16,291 nt of DNA, taken from NCBI GenBank assembly GCA_905250025.1, contig CAJNOJ010000205.1, positions 1 through 16,291 on the forward strand. Direction: 5' to 3'. Shown piece by piece: positions 1,899-16,291 of the stretch (position 1 is its first letter; every line of letters begins with the position of its first letter). The stretch is from Adineta ricciae. Taxonomy: Eukaryota. Under the pieces are notes generated by a model, which was given only the letters and a program-made list of their open reading frames with translations, had not been told where the DNA came from and did no database searches. Made by a program: the position numbers and the translations under genes.

Positions 1899-2861
1899 AT
1901 GCTACAGAATGCGACAGAGAAAGTCATAGTTACTGGTAGAGATATCTATCTTCCTCCGAACTGGTCGGACATTACCTTCTCTTTATATATAGTTGGTCAA
2001 CTAGCATCGATTCCTTGCTATGTATTTGTATTTTATCATCTTTTGGCTACTAAAACTGCGCGCACAGCTCTCTACAATCACACTACTATAATCATGTTAT
2101 TTTTCAATTTGATCTACCTGACAATAGGTATATCATTAGTATTGATGTTCATGAAAGAGGGCGTATACATGCCATCCACTCCCGCACTTTGTCTTACTCA
2201 TCAAATGGTCGACCGTGGAGTTTGGTATGGAGCTGTATTTACAATGATTTGGCTGTGTATCGAACGACATATCCTAATCTTTTGCTCCAACTGGATCCGA
2301 ACTGCACGTGGGCAATGGGTATTTCATTATATCCCATTAGCTATTTTTTCTCTGTATGCGCCATGTTTTTATTTCTACATGATTTTCATTTATCCATGTG
2401 AGCATATATATGATTATCATGTTACTTTATGTGGTGGCCCTTGGTACTCGTGTTCGTTGTCAGCATCATTTCGTTTGTATTTAACTTTTGGCCATAACTT
2501 CATGCCATTCCCAATCATTTTCATTGTCAGCAGCAGCTTTCTACTTCGAGTCTTGATCCAAAAGCACCGTTTGAAACGTGGTAATATGTGGAAAAAGAAT
2601 CGAAAAATGATTTTACAATTTGTCTTTATTTCTACGACCTATATCAGCTTTGCTCTACCTTTCACGATGGTGAATATTACACGAAGAGTAAATGGTTATG
2701 ATGTCGATCCGAATGTGCGGACACTCTTTGATCGGATGGCCAATGTGCCAGCAATAGTTTTACCTTATGCCACCGCTATAACATTACCTCATGTGAAACA
2801 GAAACTTAAAATGTTAATCTGGTGGAAACGCACACGAACGGCTATCAATCCTTTATCGTGA
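1899..2861 (+). CDS. Rhodopsin-like 7TM receptor (orphan or chemoreceptor-type GPCR), 320 aa, apparently single exon.
   Basis: ATG-initiated ORF of 320 aa. The N-terminal ectodomain carries the sequons NAT and NWS. Seven hydrophobic segments are present. After TM3 there is an E/DRY-like motif (CIERHILIF). The third intracellular loop is basic (KHRLKRGNMWKKNRK) and the C-tail is short. The TM1 - basic loop - TM2 architecture is shared with the two partial receptor genes at the window edges. Confidence 0.6.
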   Translation: MLQNATEKVIVTGRDIYLPPNWSDITFSLYIVGQLASIPCYVFVFYHLLATKTARTALYNHTTIIMLFFNLIYLTIGISLVLMFMKEGVYMPSTPALCLTHQMVDRGVWYGAVFTMIWLCIERHILIFCSNWIRTARGQWVFHYIPLAIFSLYAPCFYFYMIFIYPCEHIYDYHVTLCGGPWYSCSLSASFRLYLTFGHNFMPFPIIFIVSSSFLLRVLIQKHRLKRGNMWKKNRKMILQFVFISTTYISFALPFTMVNITRRVNGYDVDPNVRTLFDRMANVPAIVLPYATAITLPHVKQKLKMLIWWKRTRTAINPLS

Positions 2862-3190: not shown

Positions 3191-4726
3191 ATGATGATTT
3201 TTATTCTACTTGGCGTTGTTGCCATCCTAATTTTTCTTGTCAAAATATTCGATACGACTGACATTCCGAAGATCCACGGACTTCCTGAAGCTCCTAACTG
3301 GCCAGTATTTGGCAGTTTATTCCAGCTGGGTGAGAATCATTCGAAATCACTATCAAAATTAGCGAAAAAACTGGGTCCAGTATTTCAAATTCGTATGGGA
3401 AATCGACGCATTGTAGTGGCGAACTCATATGATTCGATCAAATATTTCTGGGTCAAAAATCAATCCGCACTGATCAGCCGACCGGCATTGCATACATTTC
3501 ATAATGTTGTCAGCAGTGAAGTTTTATCGATTGGAACTTCACCGTGGGATGAGTCATGTAAACAGCGTCGTAAGGCAGCAGCGACTGCATTGAATAAACC
3601 AGCTGTTCAGACATACATGCCCATCATCGATCATGAATCGTACACCGCAATCAACGAAATATTGCACGAGTGTCAAAATGGCAAAGCTGATATTAATATT
3701 ATTCCTCATCTTCAGCGATTTGCATTAAACACATCGTTGACCCTTAACTATGGCACACGAATAGCTTCGTCGGATGATGCACTTTTGAAAGAGATCGTTA
3801 CAGTCGAAGGAGCTGTGGCACAGTTGCGATCAGCATCGAATAATTGGCAAGATTATGTTCCCCTCCTACGAATATTTCCTGCACGATCAAACGAAGCAGC
3901 GACAATTCGTCAACGTCGAGATCGTTACCTCGTTCAGCTACTGAATGGTCTAAAAAAAGACATTGCTAATGGAGTCGACAGACCATGTATAACAGGAAAT
4001 ATCCTCAAAGATCCATCTGCTAAATTAAATGAGACAGAAATTCGAAGCATTTGTTTGACAATGATCAGTGCTGCTCTTGAAACAGTTCCAGCAAACATTA
4101 TTCTCGGTATTGGTTACCTTTCATCGCCACACGGTCAAGAAATTCAGGAACGTGCCTATCGAGAAATTCTTGATGTCTATCCGGATGGTGATGCATGGGA
4201 TAGATGTCTTGATGAAGAACAAGTTCCTTATGTCACCGCTCTCTACAAAGAAATTCTTCGTTATTATACCGTTCACCATATGAGTCTTCCTCGACGTAGT
4301 GTTCAAGATATTGAATACGAAGGTTCACGAATTCCGGCTGGTACGTCATTCTATATGAATGCATTTGCCGGTGACTACGATGAGAATCATTTCGAAGATC
4401 CGTATCAATTCAATCCCGATCGTTATCTAGGTGATGTGGATGGTACACCTCATTACGCATATGGTGCTGGAACACGAATGTGTATTGGTGCTCATTTAGC
4501 GAACCGAGAACTATACACATTTCTCATTCGACTCATCATTGGATTTCGCATTCTCGGACCATTGAATAAAGAAGATGCCGCAATCTTAGATGGAATGGAA
4601 ATCAATGCACGACCTACCGGTCTCGTTGTGCAACCAAAAATGTTCAAATGTCGTTTCGAACCGAGAAATATAGAAGATCTCAAACGATGGATAGACGATA
4701 GCAAACAACGGGCAGAGCATCATTAG
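3191..4726 (+). CDS. Cytochrome P450 monooxygenase, 511 aa, intronless, fungal-type sequence signature.
   Basis: Single ORF starting MMIFILLGVVAILIFLV, a hydrophobic ER signal-anchor. The I-helix motif is AALETVP (AGxDTT-like). The K-helix ExxR is EILR. A PERF-like FNPDRY is present. The heme loop FGAGTRMCIGAHLANRELY matches FxxGxRxCxG, and its HLANRELY continuation is characteristic of fungal CYP clans. A possible TATA (TATATAG) lies at 3129..3135, about 55 nt upstream. Confidence 0.9.
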   Translation: MMIFILLGVVAILIFLVKIFDTTDIPKIHGLPEAPNWPVFGSLFQLGENHSKSLSKLAKKLGPVFQIRMGNRRIVVANSYDSIKYFWVKNQSALISRPALHTFHNVVSSEVLSIGTSPWDESCKQRRKAAATALNKPAVQTYMPIIDHESYTAINEILHECQNGKADINIIPHLQRFALNTSLTLNYGTRIASSDDALLKEIVTVEGAVAQLRSASNNWQDYVPLLRIFPARSNEAATIRQRRDRYLVQLLNGLKKDIANGVDRPCITGNILKDPSAKLNETEIRSICLTMISAALETVPANIILGIGYLSSPHGQEIQERAYREILDVYPDGDAWDRCLDEEQVPYVTALYKEILRYYTVHHMSLPRRSVQDIEYEGSRIPAGTSFYMNAFAGDYDENHFEDPYQFNPDRYLGDVDGTPHYAYGAGTRMCIGAHLANRELYTFLIRLIIGFRILGPLNKEDAAILDGMEINARPTGLVVQPKMFKCRFEPRNIEDLKRWIDDSKQRAEHH

Positions 4727-4925: not shown

Positions 4926-5590
4926 ATGAATGCGTTTGTCGTTGGATTGATTCTCGGCTTGCTAGTCGCAGGAAATGTACTAGCAGTTTTTATCGTCCTG
5001 TGGCGAATATCAGGTTTGGCATTACGATGGTGCCAGTATAAATGTAATTACTTTTTTTTCTAGTCACAAGCTCTACAAGTACGAGTTTAATCAGTACAAC
5101 TGTCACAAGTACTAAGAATCGACTACATAGAAACACGCCTAGTTTTTTCATTCTTTTTCTAGATAAAACTTCAACAACAGCAGCAACTACTATGACTAGA
5201 CCTCCGTCATCGGCCTGCGTATATAATAGCAGTATAACTTTCTACAATAATCAATTTCTTTATTCTTCAACATCGCAAACTTATGCAGCTGGGATGTTAA
5301 ATAATCAATTTGGTGTTTTCAAAGCTTATAGCTATGGAAATGTAACTGCTCAAGCTATATGGACAGCAAATCAAACTTCCACATCCGTTCCATGTTTTCT
5401 TGCTTTACAAACTGACCGTAATTTAGTTGTTTACGCAACGAGTAATCAAACAGTACTATGGGCGGCTAACATTTATAATAATGGCACTGGAAAACCATTC
5501 TGTTTTGAAATATCCGATTCTGGAAACCTAATCTGGATTGACAACAGTAGCTCGATTGTCTGGCAAACAAATACAGCACAAGCGGGATAA
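4926..5590 (+). CDS. Type-II membrane-anchored bulb-type (GNA-like, B_lectin) mannose-binding lectin. Two exons, join(4926..5013, 5064..5590), about 204 aa.
   Basis: Exon 1 encodes MNAFVVGLILGLLVAGNVLAVFIVLWRIS, a 25-residue hydrophobic anchor, and ends in phase 1 at cag|GTTTGG. The 50-nt intron at 5014..5063 ends in a polypyrimidine acceptor, cttttttttctag. Exon 2 restores the frame and gives V-TSSTSTSLISTTVTSTKNRLHRNTPSFFILFLDKTSTTAATT, a Ser/Thr-rich stalk. It then joins the listed 5192..5590 ORF, which contains the canonical bulb-lectin mannose-binding motif QxDxNxVxY as LQTDRNLVVY. Two further degenerate beta-prism subdomain repeats follow (…NNQFGVFKAY…, …ISDSGNLIWID…). Confidence 0.65.
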
Positions 5591-6751: not shown

Positions 6752-7969
6752 CTATTGAAATAATTCTTCGAGTCTAACCGTTTGTGTCGGTTCATAGGGC
6801 GCATACCACATTCCAAATTCTGATGCTACTAAATGAATATGTAGTATGATTTTACCATTGAGTTCAAGTTCTACTTCAATTGTATGTTTCGTATGTCCTT
6901 TGCATGCCGATTGCAGTAATGATCGAATATGTTCCACGCTCCAATACGTGTTACTCTTTTTCAAACGAAGCTGTGCTTCCATTTGCTGTCGCGTACTTTC
7001 GTAACGATGCAATGAACTAAAAATGACATTTGATTCACAATTGCGATGACATTGTGGTGAAAACAAATATGTTACCAGGACTACAGATAGGCCCTTTCAG
7101 TTCACTGGTAGCTTTGTCCGTAGGCCAACATTTTGGATGATTGTTAAGCGTTTGTATCAGATGTAAACTTTTCAAATGCAGCTTTCATATCTTGAGGGTG
7201 ATTGAGTGAGCATGAAGTGTTTGTAGCACATGAGTTGCCATATAAGGAAAAGAGGTCAAACGTTTGACTTGTGCTCCGATTTGCGAAGGTCCAGCATTTT
7301 CCGTTGAATAGATCTCGGTTTCATTGACGCTAGATAGCACACCTATCATTCCGGGCCACGATAAGCTAACGTAACGGTATTGTTTCGATGCGCCCGAACT
7401 GTTGATAGCAAATAGTAGAGTAGTCGAGACAGTCACATGATGAATATCACACTCACCATCCATATTGCGACCAGCATATGATTCGTTGATCCGCTGTTAA
7501 AGTATTCCAAACGACAAACTGACTACAGTTTATGGATCATCTGTACGCGCATCTGATCTTATCGTTCGGCGTTCAATCATACTAAATGGATGCTTCAGTT
7601 CATGAAGATAGAGATCATTCCAATATCTTCTGCTACTAAGTAAAAATAAAACCAATCGAGAATATGAGGAGCTAGTAAATATCCATGTGTATAACTTCGA
7701 TCGTCGGTTGTAATGGCATTTAGTTGTAGGACTGGAATACGATTGATTTGCTAGAATCGTGTCGCGTCTGTTTCTGTTGGATAACCGATAGCAAAGAATG
7801 AATGAGGTTTGCGTAGTATAATATCAGCATTTAAATTCGAGATTGTATGTCGAGTCCATTTCTCGCCTGTTTCATTTGTACTCCATCCAAATGCTTGCTT
7901 CTCTGGATGCACCAACGATCCATGTGTATCTGAAAAATATTCACTCTCGCCCGCCCCACCCTCAAGATG
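6752..7969 (-). pseudogene. Decayed gene remnant. Long ORF segments lie in three different minus-strand frames with an in-frame TAG between two of them. Function unknown.
   Basis: Minus-strand segments run 5'->3'. Segment 1, about 7969..7753, reads HLEGGAGESEYFSDTHGSLVHPEKQAFGWSTNETGEKWTRHTISNLNADIILRKPHSFFAIGYPTETDATRF, then a TAG. Segment 2 continues in the same frame from about 7750..7594: QINRIPVLQLNAITTDDRSYTHGYLLAPHILDWFYFYLVAEDIGMISIFMN. Segment 3 is the track ORF 7185..7463 in a second frame (…CDIHHVTVSTTLLFAINSSGASKQYRYVSLSWPGMIGVLSSVNETEIY…). Segment 4 is the track ORF 6752..7066 in a third frame (…HTIEVELELNGKIILHIHLVASEFGMWYAPYEPTQTVRLEELFQ*). I could not find consistent GT..AG introns that join these frames. 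Confidence 0.3.
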
Positions 7970-8081: not shown

Positions 8082-9897
8082 ATGCTATTTCTACCTGTCT
8101 TTCTGTTGTTAATATGGATACGAGCTGTTGTCTTGCTAGATTTGATGAGCGATACATGGACGGCAACCGATGGCCTTGGTCGTTCTCTCCCCAAAACAGT
8201 ACCGTCACCACGAGCAGATCGATTCGTTGGGATGTTCTATTTTCTCTGGCTTGGCTTTGAATCACCTGATGGACCATTTGACATCAGTAAAATTCTCACA
8301 GCTCATCCAAATGCAATGTTAGAACCGAATAATTCCGCATGGGGGCCGATGACTCATTATCATCACTGGGGTGAACCTTATTTTGGCTACTATCGTTCAA
8401 ACGATCAATGGGTTATTCGGCGACATGCGAGAATGCTGGTCAATGCTGGTGTTGATGTTATCTTCTTCGATGTCACAAATACTGCTGTTTATCTCGAGTC
8501 TTTTCGAGCTATATGCCAAGCCTTTTCCGATGTGCGTGCTGTAGGAGGGTCAACACCGCAAGTTGCATTTCTCACACCTTTTGGATCACCGCTCGGAACG
8601 GTGCAAGTTCTTTTCGACAGTATTTATAAGATAAACTATCATCCGGAACTGTGGTTTCGATGGGAAGGCAAACCATTCATCCTTGCCAATCCACAATCCT
8701 TTCAAACACGTCCGGATATTTTAAATTTTTTTACTTTTCGGACGCCTCAGCCTGATTATTTCACTGGGCCAACTGGTGCCAATCAATGGGGTTGGTTAGA
8801 AATATATCCTCAACACGTCTACAAAACTAGTGCAAACATATCGGAACAAATGACTGTTGGTGTCGCACAGAACGCCGTTGGCAATCGACTGGGATCGATG
8901 AGTGAAGTTGGTTCTCATGGGCGTAGTTTTCATAACAATACTATTCCATCAGGTAATACATTAACACCGTACGGATTAAATATGCAAGAGCAATGGGAAC
9001 GCGCCATAGAAATTGATCCACAATTTGTATTTGTTACTGGTTGGAATGAATGGATTGCTATGCGTCTATCGGAATTCGCTAGTATAAAACTTCCAGTTAT
9101 GTTTGTCGATGAATTCGATTGGGAACATAGTCGTGATATTGAGCCTTGTGCTGGAGGAGTTAACGGAGGGTATCCTGAAGGTAGGCAGCGTGATTTCTAT
9201 TCAGTTATTAATATGTAATGGTTTCCTAGGAAATCATTATCAGGATGCGTACTATTATCAATTAGTGAGCAATGTTCGTCGTTATAAAGGCGCTCGATCT
9301 GTTCCAATACCTACTGAACCGAAAACCATCAATATTGGACAAGATTTTACGCAATGGGAAACGGTTGGACCATCATTCATTGATTATATCAATGACGTAG
9401 AACATCGCAATGAGACTGGATACAACACTAGTATGCACTACCGGGATGATACAGGTCGAAATGACATTATCTTAGTCAAAGTAGCGAGAGACATGAACAA
9501 TGTTTACTTTTATGCTCGAACTAATAACACGCTGACGAATGCGAATAATAGTTCTAACTGGATGTTACTCTTTATTGATATTGATCAAAATTTTACAACA
9601 GGATGGGAAGGATTTGATATTGTAGTTAATCGTCACATTAATGGTTCGCTTACATCTATAGAACGAAGTCAATCTGGCTGGATTTGGCAACTCGTTTCAC
9701 AAATTGCTTTTGCCACCGTTAACCATGAATTACACTTCGCTATTCCCAGAGCGTTATTAGGTTTCAACAGCACAGCTCCTGTCAAGGTTAATTTCAAGTG
9801 GGTAGATAATATGATACGTGATGGCGATATTCTCAGTCTTTTTCAAAATGGAGACACTGCTCCGGATGGTCGGTTCAGTTATGTATTTAATGGTTAG
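8082..9897 (+). CDS. Secreted TIM-barrel glycoside-hydrolase-like protein of bacterial type. Two exons, join(8082..9180, 9230..9897), 588 aa.
   Basis: Two track ORFs (8082..9218 and 9103..9897) sit in different frames. They are joined exactly by a 49-nt GT..AG intron at 9181..9229 (GTAGGCAG…gtttcctAG). The donor falls after codon position 1, so G|GA reconstitutes Gly and gives …GGYPEG-NHYQDAYYYQ…. The N-terminus MLFLPVFLLLIWIRAVVLL is signal-peptide-like. The catalytic-domain motifs are those of bacterial (beta/alpha)8 glycosidases: HYHHWGEPYFGYYRSNDQWVIRRHARMLVNAGVDVIFFDVTN and a strand ending FVFVTGWNEWIAM (an 'NEW' motif, as in GH99/GH71/GH114-type and GHL families). The C-terminal ~250 aa form a beta-sandwich-like domain (NVYFYARTNNTLTN…WMLLFIDIDQNFTTGWEGFDIVVNR). 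A possible TATA (TATTTATA) lies at 8043..8050. Confidence 0.8.
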
Positions 9898-9938
9898 GGA
9901 TTGGGAAAAAAATTGTACTTCTCAAACATATTCAAACT

Positions 9939-11461
9939 CTAAACTGCTTGAGCATGCGCTTCTTGTTTGGTTTTCTTTTGAAAAGTGCTCAATCCATCGT
10001 ATTCATTGTCACCCCAATAGAAAATAAGACTCTTTTCTGTTGCACCTTGTCCATATGGATAATACTTCTGATAGTCTAATGTATTGCTTAGTCCTCCCTT
10101 TTGGTCCACCAGAAGAATCACATTTTGATCATTTGGTTTGATAGTATTTCGCAGAACTGTATTACCAGATGCATACGAAATCGAAATTTCACCACCACCT
10201 GTACGATTGTTGTCATTTTGTTCAAGACGATTGTCAGTAAATGAACAATTCACCACTCGACCACGTCTAAAAGCGTTCATTTTCGTTATTCATTAACAGA
10301 AAAACTCTTAAGAAATCATTTACTTAGAATCATATCCACCGAAGGCCAATCCATATTTATCATTGTGATGAAGATAATTATTTCGCACAGTCATCTTCGT
10401 ACCTATTTGACCTTTATTCTCTGCACCAATTTCAATTCCCATGTCTGAATGATGTACTTCATTGTTTTCTATGGTGACATTCGATGCTCCATCAACATAG
10501 ATACCAGCTGCACTATGATCGTAAACTGAATGAATGTTCCAAACTGTGTTATTCGCACATCGAGCACTTCGAACCCCCAATTTACCGGCCCAGCTTTCAC
10601 CAGCTAATATTATGTTATATAGTTAACTTTTAATTAGAGAAATCATCAAAAGTCATACCGATGAAATCGATTCCAATGTTATTCATGTTATATACTTTGT
10701 TGTTCGTTACTTGAATCTCCTCAACGTTTCCATTGAAAGTCAAAGCTTCACTCCATGCTGGCTCACAATCATGGAGCGTGCAATTATCAACGATCACTTG
10801 TCGTCGACTCGTTTTCTGGTTTGTGTTATAAACGGTAATCGCCATTGCACCGCCGTTTTCGCCACCACCACGGATATCGTGAATATGGAGATTTCGAAGT
10901 TCTAGAAACATAAACTATATTTTTGGTAACGACAGCTTCAAAAACCTACCAACATTGGTTCCAGCGCCAGTAATTCTCACTCCACTGCATTCTGTCGATT
11001 TCAAACCTGTCAATTCTAAGTTGACAAAGCGGAGATAACTTTTATCTTGAACAAAGATTATATTTAATGTTCCATCAGCGGATGCTTTTTTTGTATCTTT
11101 GCCAGAAATAATCGGTGCATTGTTTGATGTTAAACTAGTGAATGTAATCGGCCCGTCTTGAGCATTGCCTTGGACGTTAATTGTGACAGCTTCGTAATAC
11201 GTTCCGGCACCAATGTAAACGGTAGAACCAGGTGTTGCCGAATTTGCTGCTTTTTGAACTGTTAACCAAGCAGTGGTTTCAGTAGTTCCTGCATTGGTAT
11301 CCTTGCCAGATTTGGTCACATAGTAAGATTTACCCGCTACTATTTAAAATAAACACATAGAACATTTTACGCTCAATCATATGATAGGCGTTCGTGTACA
11401 TACTTATTTGCATCCATAAAAGGGCACTCATCAAACATATAAGTTGAAATTGGAACGACAT
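9939..11461 (-). CDS. Secreted right-handed parallel beta-helix (PbH1-repeat, pectin-lyase-fold) protein, bacterial type, paralog 1. Five exons, complement(join(9939..10266, 10324..10603, 10659..10901, 10950..11339, 11404..11461)), 432 aa.
   Basis: Exon 1 is 58 nt and encodes MSFQFQLICLMSALLWMQI, a signal peptide. It ends in phase 1 at A|GTATGT. Intron 1 is 64 nt and ends tttattttaaatAG. Exon 2 begins …AGKSYYVTKSGKDTNAGTTETTAWLTVQKAANSATPGSTVYIGAGTYYE, the N-terminal cap signature of bacterial beta-helix proteins, and ends AATGTTG|GTAGGT. Intron 2 is 48 nt. Exon 3 encodes ELRNLHIHDIRGGG…NNIGIDFIG and ends ATCG|GTATGA. Intron 3 is 55 nt. Exon 4 carries PbH1 repeats (NVTIENNEVHHSDMGIEIGAEN…TVRNNYLHHNDKYGLAFGGYDSK) and ends TCTAA|GTAAAT. 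Intron 4 is 57 nt. Exon 5 encodes …TGGGEISISYASGNTVLRNTIKPN…SLIFYWGDNEYDGLSTFQKKTKQEAHAQAV*. Exon lengths sum to 1299 nt, which is 433 codons. All four junctions restore the frames of the track ORFs 10915..11319, 10630..10911, 10320..10580 and 9939..10280. Confidence 0.8.
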
Positions 11462-11508
11462 GATGAAAATCGTGAATACGAATGAGGTGGTAGATGTTTA
11501 TGTCGTTT

Positions 11509-11517
11509 CTTTATATA
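11509..11517 (-). promoter_or_regulatory. TATA box (TATATAAAG on the minus strand) about 48 nt upstream of the paralog-1 start codon.
   Basis: On the minus strand the sequence reads TCTTATATAAAGAAACGACATAAACATCTACCACCTCATTCGTATTCACGATTTTCATC-ATG. A near-identical arrangement, GGTATATATAAAGAAG…ATC-ATG, is found upstream of paralog 3. The corresponding position in paralog 2 is degenerate (GGTATGTTCACGC). Confidence 0.5.
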
Positions 11518-11900
11518 AGACATAGGTTACGATTAAAAGCGCAGGCAAATATTTACACCTCTTCTACTGTTTAGTCATAAACGGTTTCTTTTGAAATCGT
11601 GTCATGCATAGCCTCCAGCGCTGTGAATGCATTCTGTTCTGTATCAGAAACAAATCAACAATCTCCCTTGTGAAAAGATGCCATTAGAGGCATTAGTAAC
11701 CAATGTTTTTCTTCGTGACCATGCATTTGCAAACGTAAAATAATCATGACTACGTGTCGTCACCTTTATCGATTGAAACGATAATTACATTTTTCAATTT
11801 TTTCTTTCTCTCGCCTTCTCACAAGCTGACAATGTCGTCACTATCATGTGACTGGCAAACACGACATATCTTTATTCAAAACTTATGTAAACAAATGTTT

Positions 11901-13646
11901 CTACTCCAAGGCACGTTTACCAACACTGATCTGTGCATGCATCTCTTGTTTTGTATTCTCTTGGAATGCAGTGAGACCCTGGTATTCTCTATGTCCCCAA
12001 TAGAAGATTAGACTTTCTTTTGTTGCACCTCGTCCGTTCGGATAGTACTTTTGATAATCGAAGTGATTATTCAAACCACCTCTTTGGCTTGCTACTAGGA
12101 TTACGTTCTGTCTGTTTGGCTTTATTGTATTGCGCTGCACTATATTACCAGAAGCAAATGAAATGGAAATTTCTCCGCCACCAGTCAGATGTGCATCATT
12201 CTGTTCAAGATGATTGCCAGTAAATGAACTATTTGTCACTGTACCACATCTGTAAAATATCAGTATACATTTATTGATACTACCAAAATATGTGCGAATA
12301 TAACTTACTGAGAATCATATCCACCAAAAGCTAAGCCATATTTGTCGTTGTGATGAAGATAATTATTTCGAACAATCACCCTTGTAGCCATTCGACCTTT
12401 ATTCTCTGCACCAATTTCAATTCCCATATCTGCATGATGCACTACGTTGTGTTCTATGGTGACATTCGATGCTCCATCAACATAGATACCAGCTGCACTA
12501 TGATCGTAAACTGAATGAATGTTCCAAACTGTGTTATTCGCACATCGAGCACTTCGAACCCCCAATTTACCGGCCCAGCTTTCACCAGCTAGTAATATGT
12601 TATATAGTTAACTTTTAATTAGAGAAATCATCAAAAGTCATACCGATGAAATCGATTCCAATGTTGTTCATGTTATATACTTTGTTGTTCGTTACTTGAA
12701 TCTCCTCAACGTTTCCATTGAAAGTCAAAGCTTCGCTCCAAGCTGGCTCACAATCATGAAGCGTGCAATTATCAACGATCACTTGTCGTCGACTCGCGTT
12801 CTGGTTTGTGTTATAAACGGTAATCGCCATTGCACCGCCGTTTTCGCCACCACCACGGATATCGTGAACGTGGAGATTTCGAAGTTCTAGGAATATAAAA
12901 GGATAATTTTAATATCGATAAGCGTGAAACCTACCAATATTCGTTCCAGGGCCGATTATTCTCACTCCACTACACTCTACCGCTCTCAAATTTGTTAGTT
13001 CTAAATTGACGAACCGTAAATAGCTTTTGTCTTCAATATAGATGACATTGAATGTTTCATCGGCAGATGGATTTTGTGAAATTCTACCAGAAATAATTGG
13101 CACGTTGTTTGATATCAAACTAGTGAACGTAATTGGTCCATCGTGTGCATTTCCTTCTACGTTAATCGTCACTGTTTCATAATAAATGCCAGGACCAATA
13201 TAGACAGTAGAACCAGGTGTCGCTGAATTCGCTGCTCTTTGTATCGTTAACCAAGCAGTTACTCTACTTGTTCCCGCATTGGTATCTTGACCAGATTTCA
13301 TTACGTAATACGATCTGCGCGCCACTATGTAATAAACGCATACCCTTCTGTCGAGAATTATTGTTGTAGACTCACGGATAAAAAAAATGAATATATCAGA
13401 TCTGATAGAAAACTTTATGTTGAACATCTCAACGGTACACTTTGTCAGATATTCAAAATACATGCACTCATGTTTCAAGATTTATTCACTTACTTCCATC
13501 TTGCGTCCCGGGTGAGATTTTGTTCACTAGAAATTGAACTAGCACAGAGTGCTGCATGCTCAATTAGACAAATATTATGCATACGTACTTATTTGCGTCC
13601 ATAAAAGACCGGTGGCTAAATACATAGAATGCAGTCGATCAAACAT
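11901..13646 (-). CDS. Beta-helix protein paralog 2, the middle copy. Exons 2-5 are intact but the 5' end is divergent. Proposed model: complement(join(11901..12249, 12309..12588, 12644..12886, 12935..13324, 13589..13646)), about 439 aa if the homologous exon 1 is used.
   Basis: Exons 2-5 are the same length as in paralog 1 apart from exon 5 (390, 243 and 280 nt, with exon 5 at 349 nt). Junctions are homologous: AATATTG|GTAGGT, ATCG|GTATGA and TCTCA|GTAAGT. Introns 2, 3 and 4 are 48, 55 and 59 nt. Exon 2 encodes …ARRSYYVMKSGQDTNAGTSRVTAWLTIQRAANSATPGSTVYIGPGIYYE…. Exon 5 ends …KQEMHAQISVGKRALE*. The sequence homologous to exon 1 (13589..13646) encodes MFDRLHSMYLATGLLWTQI, which is no longer hydrophobic. 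It is separated from exon 2 by a 264-nt interval at 13325..13588 rather than a ~60-nt intron. No TATA box lies upstream. Whether this copy is expressed or secreted is uncertain. Confidence 0.6.
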
Positions 13647-13976
13647 GATGAAAATGATCAATGTGAATGAGGTATCAGATGCTCGTATCGTGCGTGAACA
13701 TACCAGAAGAAGTTTGCATTACTGATAAATATTTTCTTTGCATAGTGCGTCACGCATCGCTCTAGTATATGGAAAAATTGGCATTAAAAGTGTTAGTAAC
13801 CAGTGTTTTTCTCTTCATGACTATGCGTTTTGCAAATATAAATAAAACATGCCTATATGTCACCGCCTCCTCAGATCGAAGTGATGATTGCATATTTCAA
13901 TTTTCTCTTTCTCATCTTCCGACAACAGTGTCACTTTCATGTGATTTGCGATCGCAACATATATTTCATTCAAACT

Positions 13977-15530
13977 TTATAGAAAAAAGCGTTTACGTCC
14001 AAAGGCACGTTTGCTAACGCCGAGTTCTGCATGCATTTCTTGTTTGGTATTCTGTTGAAAGGAAGTCAAACCATCATACTCCGTGTTTCCCCAAAAGAAG
14101 ATAAGACTTTCTTTGGTAGCACCTTGACCATTCGGATAGTACTTTTGATAGTCAAATTGATTATTCAAACCACCTTCTTGGCTGGCAAGTAGAATTACAT
14201 TTTGTGAGTTTGGTCTTATCGTGTTACCATAGACTACATTGCCCGAAGCAAATGAGATTGAAATTTCTCCACCACCGGTAAGACGTACATCGTTCTGTTC
14301 AAGACGATTATTTATAAATAAACTATTGGTGACTTGACCACGTCTATAATGTGTTAACGTGCTCGTACTTTCATGTCACGAGATTATGCATAAATATAAC
14401 TTACTGAGAATCATATCCGCCAAAAGCTAAGCCATATTTGTCATTGTGATGAAGATAATTATTCCGAACAGTCATTTTTGAAGCCACTCGACCTTTATTC
14501 TCTGCGCCAACTTCGATCCCCATGTCCGAATGGTGTACTTCGTTAGATTCGATAGTGACATTCGATGCTCCATCAACATAGATACCCGCTGAACTACTAT
14601 CATAGACGGAGTGAATGTTCCACACGAGGTTATAAGCACAGAGACCATTTCGTACTCCAAGAGCACCGAGGAAGCTTTCTCCACCTTTAGAAAAAGAAAA
14701 AAAATATAACATTTCTGATATTTGACTGAGTTCTACATACCAATGAAATCGATTCCAATGTTGTTCATGTTATACACTTTGTTGTTCGTTACTTGAAAAT
14801 CTTCAATATTTCCATTGAAAGTCAAAGCTTCACTCCACGCTGGCTCGCAATCATGGAGTATACAACTATCAACGATCACTTGTCGTCGACTTGCCGTTTG
14901 ATCTTTATTGTAAACCGTGATTGGCATTGCTCCACCGCTCTGTCCACCGCCACGAATATCATGAATGTGCAAACCTCGAAGTTCTTGAAGCAAAAGCTAT
15001 ATTTTTGGTAACGACAGCATCAAAACCTACCAACATTGGTTCCAGCACCAGTAATTCTCACACCACTACATTCTACTGCTTTCAAATCTGTCAATTCTAA
15101 ATTGACAAAGCGCAAATAGCTTTTCTCTTGAATAAAAATTATGTTCATGGTGCCATCAGCAGATTCTGTTTTAGCCTGTTTGCCAGATATCACTGCTGGC
15201 TTATCAAAGATCAAGCTAGCGAATGTAATTAGTCCATCTCGGGCATTTCCTTGTACATTGACTGTTACTGTTTCATAATACGTTCCAGGACCAATGTAAA
15301 CCGTGGATCCGGGTGTTGCTGAATTCGCAGCTTTTTGAACTGTTAACCAAGCAGATGTCTCACTCGTTCCTGCATTGGTATCCTTGCCAGATTTCGTTAC
15401 ATAGTATGTTCTACCAGCTACTATATAATAGCCATACAGAAGACCTTATATTTCATAGTAGAAAATCTTTGCACATACCTGTTTGAGTCCAAAGTAAAAG
15501 AAAAGTGAAACAAGCAAGTCCTGTTTGCAT
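13977..15530 (-). CDS. Secreted beta-helix protein paralog 3. Five exons, complement(join(13977..14343, 14405..14684, 14741..14983, 15031..15420, 15479..15530)), 443 aa.
   Basis: Exon 1 is 52 nt and encodes MQTGLACFTFLLLWTQT, a signal peptide, ending G|GTATGT. Intron 1 is 58 nt and ends tattatatAG. Exon 2 encodes VAGRTYYVTKSGKDTNAGTSETSAWLTVQKAANSATPGSTVYIGPGTYYE… and ends AATGTTG|GTAGGT. Intron 2 is 47 nt and ends gcttcaAG. Exon 3 encodes ELRGLHIHDIRGGGQSGG…NNIGIDFIG and ends ATTG|GTATGT. Intron 3 is 56 nt and ends ttctaaAG. Exon 4 encodes GESFLGALGVRNG…GGYDSQ and ends CA|GTAAGT. Intron 4 is 61 nt and ends cattatAG. Exon 5 encodes …GGGEISISFASGNVVYGNTIRPN…SLIFFWGNTEYDGLTSFQQNTKQEMHAELGVSKRAFGRKRFFL*. 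Exon lengths sum to 1332 nt, which is 444 codons. Confidence 0.8.
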
Positions 15531-15855: not shown

Positions 15856-16291
15856 TTATTTAGTGATGCCTGCACCTGTATGAGTCGCTGTTAACGTTGG
15901 TCGAACTCGATGTTGATTTTTGCTACATCCAAACATCATAATACATTCTTGCCGAAATTCTTTAAATGTGAGAAAATAAAGTGGAAATGACAAGATATGA
16001 TAAGTATACAAAACTGGATCTAGAATTTTAACCGATATTGGTGGAGGTATGTCAGAAAATGCAGAGGCAATGGTTGCTGGTACTGTCATGATCAGAAAGA
16101 GACATGTTGTAATAACCAGTGTAATCGAAATCGCTCGGTGATTGATTCGGGAGTTTTGAATCAATTGTGTTTGGTGACGACGATATAAATGATGAATCAC
16201 TCCACTATTAAGTGTCACCATAAGAATAAACGGTGCAAAATTGTACACACCTAAATTGACATAATCCCATAAGGGATAAATAATGTATAGT
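15856..16291 (-). CDS. Rhodopsin-like 7TM receptor, 3' portion (about TM3/4 to the C-terminus). The gene starts beyond the right edge.
   Basis: The minus-strand frame is open from the right edge to a stop at 15856..15858. The track 'M' at 16248 is a GTG codon inside the ORF. The translation reads …LYIIYPLWDYVNLGVYNFAPFILMVTLNSGVIHHLYRRHQTQLIQNSRINHRAISITLVITTCLFLIMTVPATIASAFSDIPPPISVKILDPVLYTYHILSFPLYFLTFKEFRQECIMMFGCSK… It contains a TM7 NPxxY-like motif (DPVLY) and a basic intracellular loop, as in the 1899..2861 receptor. Confidence 0.55.
   Translation of the reverse strand, partial: LYIIYPLWDYVNLGVYNFAPFILMVTLNSGVIHHLYRRHQTQLIQNSRINHRAISITLVITTCLFLIMTVPATIASAFSDIPPPISVKILDPVLYTYHILSFPLYFLTFKEFRQECIMMFGCSKNQHRVRPTLTATHTGAGITK

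What the first reader, a model, noticed from the sequence alone, without database searches (positions are those of the whole stretch)
8082..9938. Bacterial-type glycoside-hydrolase-like gene with one 49-nt intron, next to the beta-helix array
The 588-aa product has a signal peptide and a TIM-barrel domain carrying the motifs HWGEPYFGYYRSNDQWVIRRHARMLVNAGVDVIFFDVTN and FVFVTGWNEWIAM. These resemble bacterial GH99/GH71/GH114-type and GHL-family glycosidases. A C-terminal beta-sandwich domain follows. A single intron at 9181..9229 (GT..AG, polypyrimidine acceptor) interrupts a Gly codon and joins the two frames cleanly. The gene is immediately adjacent to three beta-helix genes of similar bacterial flavour, and convergent with them. 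This raises the possibility that a hydrolase/lyase pair was acquired or recruited together as a polysaccharide-degrading module. The specific GH family and substrate cannot be decided from motifs alone.
Basis: partly seen in the sequence, partly recalled or inferred. Interest (0 to 1): 0.7.

Follow-up and report, generated by a model that had tools for sequence, protein, structure and literature searches.

The report
Bacterial sugar-cutting enzyme gene in rotifer
This is a real, intron-bearing gene of the bdelloid rotifer Adineta ricciae that was captured long ago from bacteria and encodes a secreted enzyme of a large, still uncharacterised family related to GH99/GH71 glycosidases. Its position next to the beta-helix genes arose inside rotifers and was not inherited as a bacterial gene pair.

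Summary
Exons 8082-9180 and 9230-9897, joined across a 49-nt GT..AG intron, give a 588-aa protein. That protein is identical to a deposited Adineta ricciae protein (CAF1286636.1 / A0A815CP04, "uncharacterized").

The splice junction is colinear with intronless bacterial homologs. The intron sits at the same site and phase in A. ricciae, A. vaga and A. steineri, but is absent from a related rotifer-like metagenome contig. dN/dS is 0.09-0.16.

It belongs to a large bacterial family with no Pfam or NCBIfam model (4222 clusters). Members lie in SusC/SusD PULs, next to GH78/GH106 rhamnosidases, and are fused to CBM32 or CBM6.

The co-acquisition idea is not supported. No beta-helix homolog occurs in 88 bacterial loci of this family, and no family member occurs in 80 beta-helix loci. 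The two genes also differ in their distribution among bdelloids. The adjacency is confined to Adineta, in a region that also carries a fungal-type P450.

This is an ordinary bdelloid gene transfer. The untested enzyme family is of moderate interest.

The parts
8082..9180 (+). Exon 1 of the GH99/GH71-like gene (aa 1-366 plus the first base of Gly367)
   Evidence: The first ATG after an in-frame stop. The product is identical to the deposited A. ricciae protein.
8082..8138 (+). Hydrophobic N-terminal signal-peptide-like segment (aa 1-19)
   Evidence: Kyte-Doolittle window averages of 2-3 over aa 1-16. Low-confidence helix in the model. Orthologs carry equivalent leaders before the conserved LDLMSDTW. 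Inferred; SignalP was not run.
9181..9229 (+). 49-nt spliceosomal intron, GT..AG, phase 1
   Evidence: Same site and phase, with 49-, 60- and 70-nt introns, in the second A. ricciae copy, A. vaga and A. steineri. Absent in L088.
9230..9897 (+). Exon 2 (rest of Gly367 to Gly588, stop TAG 9895-9897)
   Evidence: dN/dS for this exon alone is 0.07-0.26.
8214..9300 (+). (beta/alpha)8 barrel domain (about aa 45-390, spanning the intron), GH99/GH71-like
9042..9053 (+). WNEW motif (W321-N322-E323-W324). E323 aligns with the first catalytic Glu of GH99 (Bt E329).
   Evidence: phmmer/hmmsearch alignments to 4acz/4acy. E323 is conserved in 103/104 family members. The position of GH99's second Glu is Ala in 101/104.
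9328..9894 (+). C-terminal beta-sandwich (about aa 400-588), CBM9-like
9939..11461 (-). Neighbour, not part of the same transferred unit: beta-helix gene copy 1. Five exons (11461-11404, 11339-10950, 10901-10659, 10603-10324, 10266-9939), 432 aa.
   Evidence: Gene model. Pfam Beta_helix 5.6e-17. Orthologs are annotated Pel9A-like_beta_helix.
11931..13328 (-). Neighbour: beta-helix gene copy 2 (extent of the tblastn match; the first exon was not mapped)
14025..15424 (-). Neighbour: beta-helix gene copy 3 (extent of the tblastn match; the first exon was not mapped)

Best explanation
The window is from the bdelloid rotifer Adineta ricciae. The gene at 8082-9897 is a domesticated horizontal acquisition from bacteria. 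It was taken up once in a bdelloid ancestor, fitted with a eukaryotic signal-like leader, brought to host base composition, and given one spliceosomal intron in the Adineta lineage. It has been kept under purifying selection.

It encodes a secreted two-domain protein: a (beta/alpha)8 barrel related to GH99 endo-alpha-mannosidases and GH71 alpha-1,3-glucanases, followed by a CBM9-like beta-sandwich. I infer that it is a glycoside hydrolase of a large, undescribed sister family of GH99/GH71. I infer that it serves the animal as an extracellular or digestive enzyme on microbial, algal or plant glycans. Bacterial gene context points most often to rhamnose-containing glycans.

E323 in the WNEW motif is the likely catalytic carboxylate. 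Its partner is not the GH99 one, and must be among the invariant D130, E255, D343, D352, E354 and D372.

The neighbouring beta-helix genes are a separate, older bacterial acquisition. The convergent adjacency arose within rotifers, in a region that collects foreign genes.

Shown here: gene model, intron, origin, selection, fold, bacterial context, absence of linkage in bacteria. Inferred: secretion, hydrolase activity, substrate, physiological role.
For: - Identity and gene model: the exact protein is deposited for A. ricciae. The window is collinear at 88-94% nt with a second A. ricciae contig.
- Intron: the junction is colinear with bacterial homologs. Same site and phase in three Adineta species, with unrelated intron sequences of 49-70 nt. 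The ortholog on L088 is intronless.
- Foreign origin: after the rotifer-type hits at 71-95% identity, the listed hits (the best 120 of 6592 with E <= 0.001) are bacterial or unnamed metagenome proteins at 47-59% identity. Hits at 71-80% that cover only about 60% of the query were not placed. The rotifer group is monophyletic in 30/30 bootstraps, sister to P0011/P0012. The closest bacterial loci have 69-73% GC, against 41% for this gene.
- Host context: GPCR-like and intron-bearing neighbours.
- Function retained: dN/dS 0.09-0.16 overall and in each exon.
- CAZyme context of the family: among 85 bacterial loci, SusD in 15, SusC in 13, GH78/GH106 in 11, tandem paralogs in 10, sulfatases in 5 and GH127 in 3.
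- Domain fusions: members fused to three CBM32 or three CBM6/35 modules.
- Rhamnose theme: the locus of a close bacterial relative, P0014, carries an above-threshold L-rhamnonate dehydratase and a sugar-acid pathway operon.
- Catalytic residue: E323 is conserved in 103/104 and aligns with GH99 Bt-E329.
- Separate origin of the neighbours: no linkage in 88 + 80 bacterial loci. The two genes differ in distribution among bdelloids. There is no beta-helix gene next to the ortholog on L088. The neighbouring P450 is fungal-type.
Against: - No biochemical data exist for any member found here.
- Sequence similarity to GH99 is marginal: 16 bits against a cut-off of 33, and E 0.006-0.02 against PDB chains.
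- The position of GH99's second catalytic Glu is Ala, so the mechanism cannot be transferred from GH99.
- The substrate inference rests on gene neighbourhood in a minority of loci. GH78/GH106 occur in 11 of 85, and many loci show no CAZyme context.
- CAZy/dbCAN could not be queried, so the family may already have a CAZy number.
- No RNA-seq was available, so expression, splicing and secretion in the animal were not directly observed.
- The NJ sister relation to insert-bearing bacterial proteins is a simple distance tree.
- The adjacency with the beta-helix genes is conserved across three Adineta species, which could reflect function rather than chance.
Confidence: 0.75

Rival explanations
1. 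Secondary functional clustering. The two genes were acquired separately, but in the Adineta ancestor the GH-like gene and the beta-helix genes were brought together and kept together because they act on the same polysaccharide or are co-regulated. This would be a small eukaryotic counterpart of a polysaccharide utilisation locus.
For: The convergent adjacency is conserved in both A. ricciae copies, in A. vaga and in A. steineri, despite dS of 0.8-1.4. The stop codons are only 41 nt apart. Beta-helix copy number varies locally from 1 to 3, which suggests ongoing selection or turnover at this site.
Against: Bacterial homologs of the two families share neither linkage nor context. The beta-helix loci lack SusC/D and GH78, and only 1 of 80 has a GH106. 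The ortholog on L088 has no beta-helix neighbour. The region also holds an unrelated fungal-type P450 and a lectin-like ORF, as expected for a passive foreign-gene-rich region. There are no expression data.
Confidence: 0.2
2. Co-transfer. The GH-like gene and the beta-helix gene arrived together from one bacterial donor as a ready-made hydrolase/lyase module.
For: Both are of bacterial type and are adjacent in Adineta.
Against: There is no real beta-helix hit in 88 bacterial GH-like loci and no GH-like hit in 80 beta-helix loci. The closest donor-like relatives differ: high-GC Actinomycetota-like for the GH-like gene, and Verrucomicrobia, Caldithrix or Blastocatellia types at 36-48% for the beta-helix gene. 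The beta-helix family is in all sampled bdelloid genera, while named GH-like hits are Adineta only. The intronless ortholog on L088 is unlinked.
Confidence: 0.04
3. The protein is not a hydrolase. It is a GH99-like barrel that binds glycans, or that catalyses another reaction such as a transglycosylase, a phosphorylase, or a WbsX-type GH99-like glycosyltransferase.
For: GH99's second catalytic Glu is replaced by Ala in 101/104 members. Similarity to GH99 is sub-threshold. No characterised member was found in Pfam, NCBIfam, PDB or the literature searches.
Against: Seven acidic residues are invariant or nearly so, including the GH99-equivalent E323. The family has catabolic context: PULs, rhamnosidases and sugar-acid catabolism. 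Members are fused to CBMs. There is no hit to Glyco_tran_WbsX.
Confidence: 0.15
4. Assembly contamination. The gene is bacterial DNA mis-assembled into a rotifer contig.
For: The homologs are bacterial-type.
Against: The gene has a spliceosomal intron and 41% GC with 32% GC3, like its neighbours. It is flanked on both sides by intron-bearing or eukaryote-type genes. Synteny is conserved in four independent Adineta assemblies.
Confidence: 0.01

Closest known systems
GH99 endo-alpha-1,2-mannosidases/mannanases (Bacteroides BtGH99/BxGH99, human MANEA; Pfam PF16317)
   Different: About 15% identity. Pfam score 16.1 against a cut-off of 33. The second catalytic Glu (Bt E332) position is Ala. The barrel is larger, with extra hairpins, and has an added CBM9-like domain. 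Gene context points to rhamnose-type rather than mannan or N-glycan substrates.
GH71 alpha-1,3-glucanases (S. pombe Agn1p, A. nidulans AnGH71C)
   Different: 8-12% identity. No Pfam GH71 hit at E<=1. No evidence for an alpha-1,3-glucan context.
Horizontally acquired carbohydrate-active enzymes of bdelloid rotifers (PMC3499245, PMC5916493, PMC11258130)
   Same: A gene of bacterial type, intron-bearing, ameliorated, conserved among bdelloid species, and lying among other foreign genes. This fits the published picture of bdelloid foreign genes, including GH enzymes of bacterial origin.
   Different: This particular family has no assigned function or family model. I found no paper that mentions it.
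CBM9 / DOMON-like beta-sandwich modules (T. maritima Xyn10A CBM9, 1i82)
   Different: 15% identity and no Pfam hit. Sugar binding is untested.

Membership tests
GH99 (Pfam PF16317 Glyco_hydro_99) | Scores above the family's curated gathering threshold | tested here: not met
   16.1 bits against a cut-off of 33, with only aa 46-128 matched. A profile of 77 family members against GH99 PDB chains gives only E 0.018-0.12.
GH99 | (beta/alpha)8 barrel superposable on solved GH99 structures | tested here: met
GH99 | Catalytic Glu pair in the NEWHE motif (Bt E329/E332; Bx E333/E336). The residue roles are from my own knowledge of the GH99 literature. | tested here: not met
   In the HMMER alignments the first Glu corresponds to E323, conserved in 103/104. 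The second falls on A326, which is Ala in 101/104. This is a sequence alignment only; no structural superposition of side chains was possible.
GH99 | Endo-alpha-mannosidase/mannanase activity | not testable with these tools
   Needs enzymology.
GH71 (Pfam PF03659) | Sequence match to the family model | tested here: not met
Any CAZy GH family (dbCAN HMMs) | Significant dbCAN/CAZy assignment | not testable with these tools
   dbCAN/CAZy is not available here. Pfam and NCBIfam give no above-threshold family.
Bdelloid horizontally transferred gene | Closest non-rotifer relatives are non-metazoan, and the rotifer copies form one clade | tested here: met
   The best 120 hits (of 6592 with E <= 0.001) show no named eukaryote other than Adineta; the rest are bacterial or unnamed metagenome proteins. 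The full-length rotifer-type sequences are monophyletic in 30/30 NJ bootstraps.
Bdelloid horizontally transferred gene | Physically integrated in the host genome: intron, host-like composition, host neighbours, conserved synteny | tested here: met
Bdelloid horizontally transferred gene | Maintained as a functional gene (purifying selection) | tested here: met
   dN/dS 0.09-0.16, and each exon separately is at most 0.26.
Bdelloid horizontally transferred gene | Transcribed and spliced in the animal | not testable with these tools
   No RNA-seq access. The only indirect support is the identical deposited gene model.
Bacterial polysaccharide-utilisation-locus enzyme family (applies to the bacterial homologs) | Recurrent adjacency to SusC/SusD pairs and other CAZymes | tested here: met
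   SusD in 15, SusC in 13, GH78/GH106 in 11 and GH127 in 3 of 85 loci. CBM32 and CBM6 fusions.
Co-transferred GH + beta-helix module | Homologs of both genes are neighbours in bacteria | tested here: not met
   0 of 88 loci one way (one marginal 63-aa hit in L080, E 2.5e-4) and 0 of 80 the other way.

The most novel reading that the evidence does not exclude
The gene is the animal representative of an undescribed glycoside hydrolase family. That family is a sister of GH99/GH71 with a different catalytic partner residue, and it acts on rhamnose-containing glycans. In Adineta it has been assembled with tandem beta-helix enzymes into a co-regulated, eukaryotic mini polysaccharide-degradation locus, built from independently acquired bacterial parts.
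Probability: 0.1. Interest if true: 0.6.

Novelty: new variant of a known kind. Interest (0 to 1): 0.35.

Why it matters
For rotifer biology this is one more well-documented case of a domesticated bacterial gene. It shows post-transfer intron gain, a replaced leader sequence and composition brought to that of the host.

The broader value lies in the protein family. It comprises thousands of bacterial sequence clusters (4222 at 50% identity). Members often sit in PULs and rhamnosidase clusters or are fused to CBMs. The family has no Pfam or NCBIfam model and no solved structure or characterised member that I could find. Characterising one member would annotate thousands of genes and might define a new GH family with a variant of the GH99/GH71 active site.

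The linkage test also gives a clear negative. Adjacent foreign genes in bdelloids need not have arrived together.

Tried and rejected
- Pfam and NCBIfam scans of the product gave only a sub-threshold GH99 hit and nothing in NCBIfam.
- A profile search of the PDB with 77 family members did not improve on the single sequence.
- The AlphaFold-database fold library was not available, so no annotated AFDB neighbours were obtained.
- Literature searches found no paper describing this family. The terms tried were GH99-like; GH99/GH71 distant relatives in PULs; new GH family plus rhamnosidase; and bdelloid CAZymes.
- A first NJ/bootstrap script timed out and was redone with a faster distance routine.
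- Pfam scans of nine multidomain members gave CBM32 and CBM6/35 fusions in two, a Metallophos domain in one, and nothing in six. No second catalytic GH domain emerged as a clue.
- Contamination was considered and rejected on the intron, composition and synteny evidence.
- Membership of GH99 proper, GH71, GH114 and the GHL families was considered and rejected (see the membership table).
I could not superpose active sites to identify the second catalytic residue.
Full report
**1. The observation**

The stretch 8082-9897 was read and translated.
- Exon 1 (8082-9180) and exon 2 (9230-9897, stop TAG at 9895-9897) join in frame across a 49-nt GT..AG intron (9181-9229). The intron splits a Gly codon in phase 1. 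The product is 588 aa.
- Without splicing, the frame ends 12 codons into the intron.
- The exact 588-aa sequence is already deposited as Adineta ricciae CAF1286636.1 / CAF1357628.1, UniProt A0A815CP04, "uncharacterized protein". The window is therefore A. ricciae, and an independent annotation reached the same gene model.
- A second A. ricciae contig (L006) is collinear with the whole window at 88-94% nucleotide identity.

**2. The intron**

- In an alignment with rotifer orthologs and intronless bacterial homologs, the junction ...GGYPEG|NHYQDAYYY... is gap-free.
- A search for single-intron models that reproduce the deposited proteins found an intron at the homologous codon and in phase 1 in three further cases. 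These are the second A. ricciae copy (49 nt), A. vaga (60 nt) and A. steineri (70 nt). The intron sequences are unrelated.
- A 73%-identical ortholog lies on metagenome contigs (L088-L090). These have 34% GC and neighbours of the 7tm_1, PLAT and pentapeptide types, so they come from a eukaryote, most likely another bdelloid. That ortholog is one uninterrupted ORF.
- The simplest reading is intron gain after the transfer, in the Adineta lineage. Loss in the other lineage cannot be excluded.

**3. Origin and maintenance**

- The best hits are Adineta ricciae (95%), A. vaga (82%) and A. steineri (80%), plus five unnamed full-length metagenome proteins at 73-78%.
- After these come bacterial or unnamed metagenome proteins at 47-59% identity among the best 120 listed, out of 6592 with E <= 0.001. 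Named ones are Actinomadura, Actinopolymorpha and Armatimonadota. A few partial hits at 71-80% identity that cover only about 60% of the query (P0010, P0022-P0029 and similar) were not examined.
- A genome scan adds Planctomycetota, Verrucomicrobiota, Hydrogenedentota and Bacteroidota, the last including Pedobacter, Chitinophaga and Dyadobacter.
- In an NJ tree of 104 sequences the rotifer-type group is monophyletic in 30/30 bootstraps. It is sister to two insert-bearing proteins, P0011 and P0012. Their contig and that of the related P0014 have 69-70% GC.
- The rotifer gene has 41% GC and 32% GC3, like its surroundings.
- Pairwise dN/dS among rotifer copies is 0.09-0.16, with dS up to 1.8. Each exon alone is also constrained.
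- Contamination is excluded by the intron, the composition, the intron-bearing neighbours and synteny in four assemblies.

**4. What the protein is**

- Pfam gives only a sub-threshold GH99 hit: 16.1 bits against a cut-off of 33, over aa 46-128. NCBIfam gives nothing.
- phmmer and a 77-sequence profile find only GH99 chains in the PDB, at E 0.006-0.12.
- AlphaFold2 with a 77-sequence alignment gives a confident model (pLDDT 92.4, pTM 0.92). It has a low-confidence N-terminal helix, a (beta/alpha)8 barrel at about aa 45-390 with extra hairpins, and a beta-sandwich at about aa 400-588.
- Foldseek against the PDB ranks GH99 first (E 1.8e-7), then GH71 and human MANEA. The C-terminal domain matches CBM9.
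- In the HMMER alignments the Glu of WNEW (E323) corresponds to the first catalytic Glu of BtGH99 (E329), and is conserved in 103/104 members. The position of the second Glu (E332) is Ala in 101/104.
- D130, E255, D343, D352, E354 and D372 are invariant.
- I therefore do not file the protein in GH99. It belongs to a distinct family with a GH99/GH71-type fold.
- The N-terminal 19 residues are strongly hydrophobic and precede the conserved mature start. In bacterial homologs that start follows Sec- or Tat-type leaders. Secretion is inferred.

**5. The family in bacteria**

- A full HMMER pass over 1.84 billion representative proteins finds 4222 clusters at E<=1e-3 and 1582 at E<=1e-30. Many are multidomain.
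- Of nine fusion proteins scanned, one carries three CBM32 modules and one carries three CBM6/35 modules.
- In Actinomadura verrucosospora and A. darangshiensis the gene lies inside clusters of several GH78 and GH106 alpha-L-rhamnosidases plus a GH43.
- I clustered the ORFs within 8 kb of the gene in 85 bacterial loci. SusD-like neighbours occur in 15 loci, SusC-like in 13, GH78/GH106 in 11, tandem paralogs in 10, sulfatases in 5 and GH127 in 3. Pfam confirmed the representatives.
- The closest bacterial relatives head an operon of GFO_IDH_MocA, Glyoxalase_4, MR_MLE, 2-Hacid_dh, Amidohydro_2, ABM and FAA_hydrolase genes.
- In L094 an above-threshold L-rhamnonate dehydratase lies 3.4 kb upstream. 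The FAA hydrolase resembles 2,4-didehydro-3-deoxy-L-rhamnonate hydrolase, but below threshold.
- Other loci show no carbohydrate context.
- Together this supports a catabolic carbohydrate-active enzyme. It points more weakly to rhamnose-containing glycans. The exact bond cleaved is unknown.

**6. The neighbouring beta-helix genes and the module hypothesis**

- Three tandem beta-helix genes lie on the minus strand, convergent with the GH-like gene.
- Copy 1 has five exons and 48-64-nt introns, and encodes 432 aa with a Pfam Beta_helix match. Its stop codon is 41 nt from the GH-like stop.
- The convergent adjacency is conserved in the second A. ricciae copy, in A. vaga (one intact copy plus a degenerate remnant) and in A. 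steineri.
- Homologs of the beta-helix protein occur in Adineta, Rotaria and Didymodactylos at 56-83%. Bacterial homologs are at 36-48% (Verrucomicrobia, Caldithrix, Blastocatellia). Named rotifer hits of the GH-like protein are Adineta only.
- tblastn of the beta-helix protein against 88 bacterial loci of the GH-like family (1.38 Mb) gives no real hit, only one marginal 63-aa match at E 2.5e-4.
- tblastn of the GH-like protein against 80 metagenome loci of beta-helix homologs (0.77 Mb, 35 of them at least 8 kb long) gives none.
- Those beta-helix loci also lack SusC/D and GH78.
- The L088 ortholog has no beta-helix neighbour within 10 kb downstream.
- The beta-helix protein's only significant solved relative by sequence is a GH120 beta-xylosidase, over its N-terminal part. 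"Lyase" is therefore unproven.
- The upstream intronless P450 (3191-4726) is 60-62% identical to ascomycete phenylacetate 2-hydroxylases and is present across bdelloids. The window is thus a mosaic of foreign genes of different origins.
- Co-transfer is not supported. Later juxtaposition is the best reading. Whether selection maintains the juxtaposition is open.

**7. Comparison with what is known, and novelty**

- Foreign genes in bdelloids, including bacterial GH enzymes, their expression, their intron gain and their clustering, are well documented (PMC3499245, PMC5916493, PMC11258130). As an HGT case the finding is ordinary, and the gene is already in public annotation.
- What is not described, as far as these tools can tell, is the protein family. 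It has no Pfam or NCBIfam model, no solved structure closer than GH99, and no paper found. CAZy could not be consulted.
- I rate it a new variant of a known kind: a GH99/GH71-fold family with a different catalytic partner residue. Overall interest is moderate to low.

**8. Verdict**

- Observation: confirmed.
- Interpretation: partly supported. The bacterial-type, GH99/GH71-like, intron-bearing gene is right. GH114/GHL similarity and co-acquisition with the beta-helix genes are not supported.
- Best explanation (confidence 0.75): a domesticated, secreted, putative glycoside hydrolase of an uncharacterised GH99/GH71-like family, probably used to digest microbial or plant glycans, lying next to independently acquired beta-helix genes.

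Noticed in passing
window 3191-4726 (+): An intronless 511-aa cytochrome P450. It is 60-62% identical to ascomycete phenylacetate 2-hydroxylases (CYP504-like), and orthologs occur in Adineta and Rotaria. It is a separate, fungal-type foreign gene 3.4 kb upstream of the GH-like gene.
   Followed up: partly
window 5192-5590 (+): A 132-aa ORF with a sub-threshold bulb-type (B_lectin) mannose-binding lectin match, 26.8 bits against a cut-off of 32.4. The orthologous gene model in L006 is 187 aa. It may be another non-metazoan-type gene.
   Followed up: no
window 9898-9938: Only 41 nt separate the stop codon of the GH-like gene (+) from the stop codon of beta-helix copy 1 (-). Their 3' UTRs must be very short or must overlap.
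   Followed up: no
window 9939-15424 (-): Three tandem beta-helix paralogs, 69-93% identical to each other by exon, with short introns of 48-64 nt in copy 1. Copy number at this site differs between species: one intact copy in A. vaga, one or two in A. steineri haplotypes, and three in A. ricciae.
   Followed up: partly
L007 11933-12600 (A. vaga): A degenerate partial beta-helix copy, 43-62% identical and covering only the C-terminal half. It lies directly after the GH-like gene and before the intact copy, and looks like a decaying paralog.
   Followed up: no
L091 8586-9053 and 15037-15892 (A. steineri): Partial duplicates of the GH-like gene flank the intact gene on one A. steineri contig but not on the other (L092). 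One covers aa 7-162 and the other aa 327-588.
   Followed up: no
window 1899-2861 (+), 15856-16248 (-), 6752-7463 (-): ORFs with weak matches to rhodopsin-type or serpentine GPCR families. The equivalents in L006 and L088 are annotated 7tm_1. These are host-type genes interleaved with the foreign ones.
   Followed up: no
P0011-P0015, P0013 (bacterial homologs); alignment A1 columns about 280-415: A subgroup of bacterial family members carries an insert of roughly 130-170 residues between barrel strands, where the rotifer proteins have none. This subgroup is nevertheless the nearest to the rotifer clade in the NJ tree.
   Followed up: no
L094 5366-6583 and 12401-19772; 19775-22189: The locus of a close bacterial relative combines an L-rhamnonate dehydratase, a sugar-acid catabolic operon, a PL8 lyase and a GH5 gene. 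This is a possible complete pathway for a rhamnose- or uronate-containing polysaccharide.
   Followed up: partly
P0257 (bacterial family member, 850 aa): One family member is fused to an N-terminal calcineurin-like metallophosphoesterase domain. This is an unexpected partner for a glycosidase-like barrel.
   Followed up: no
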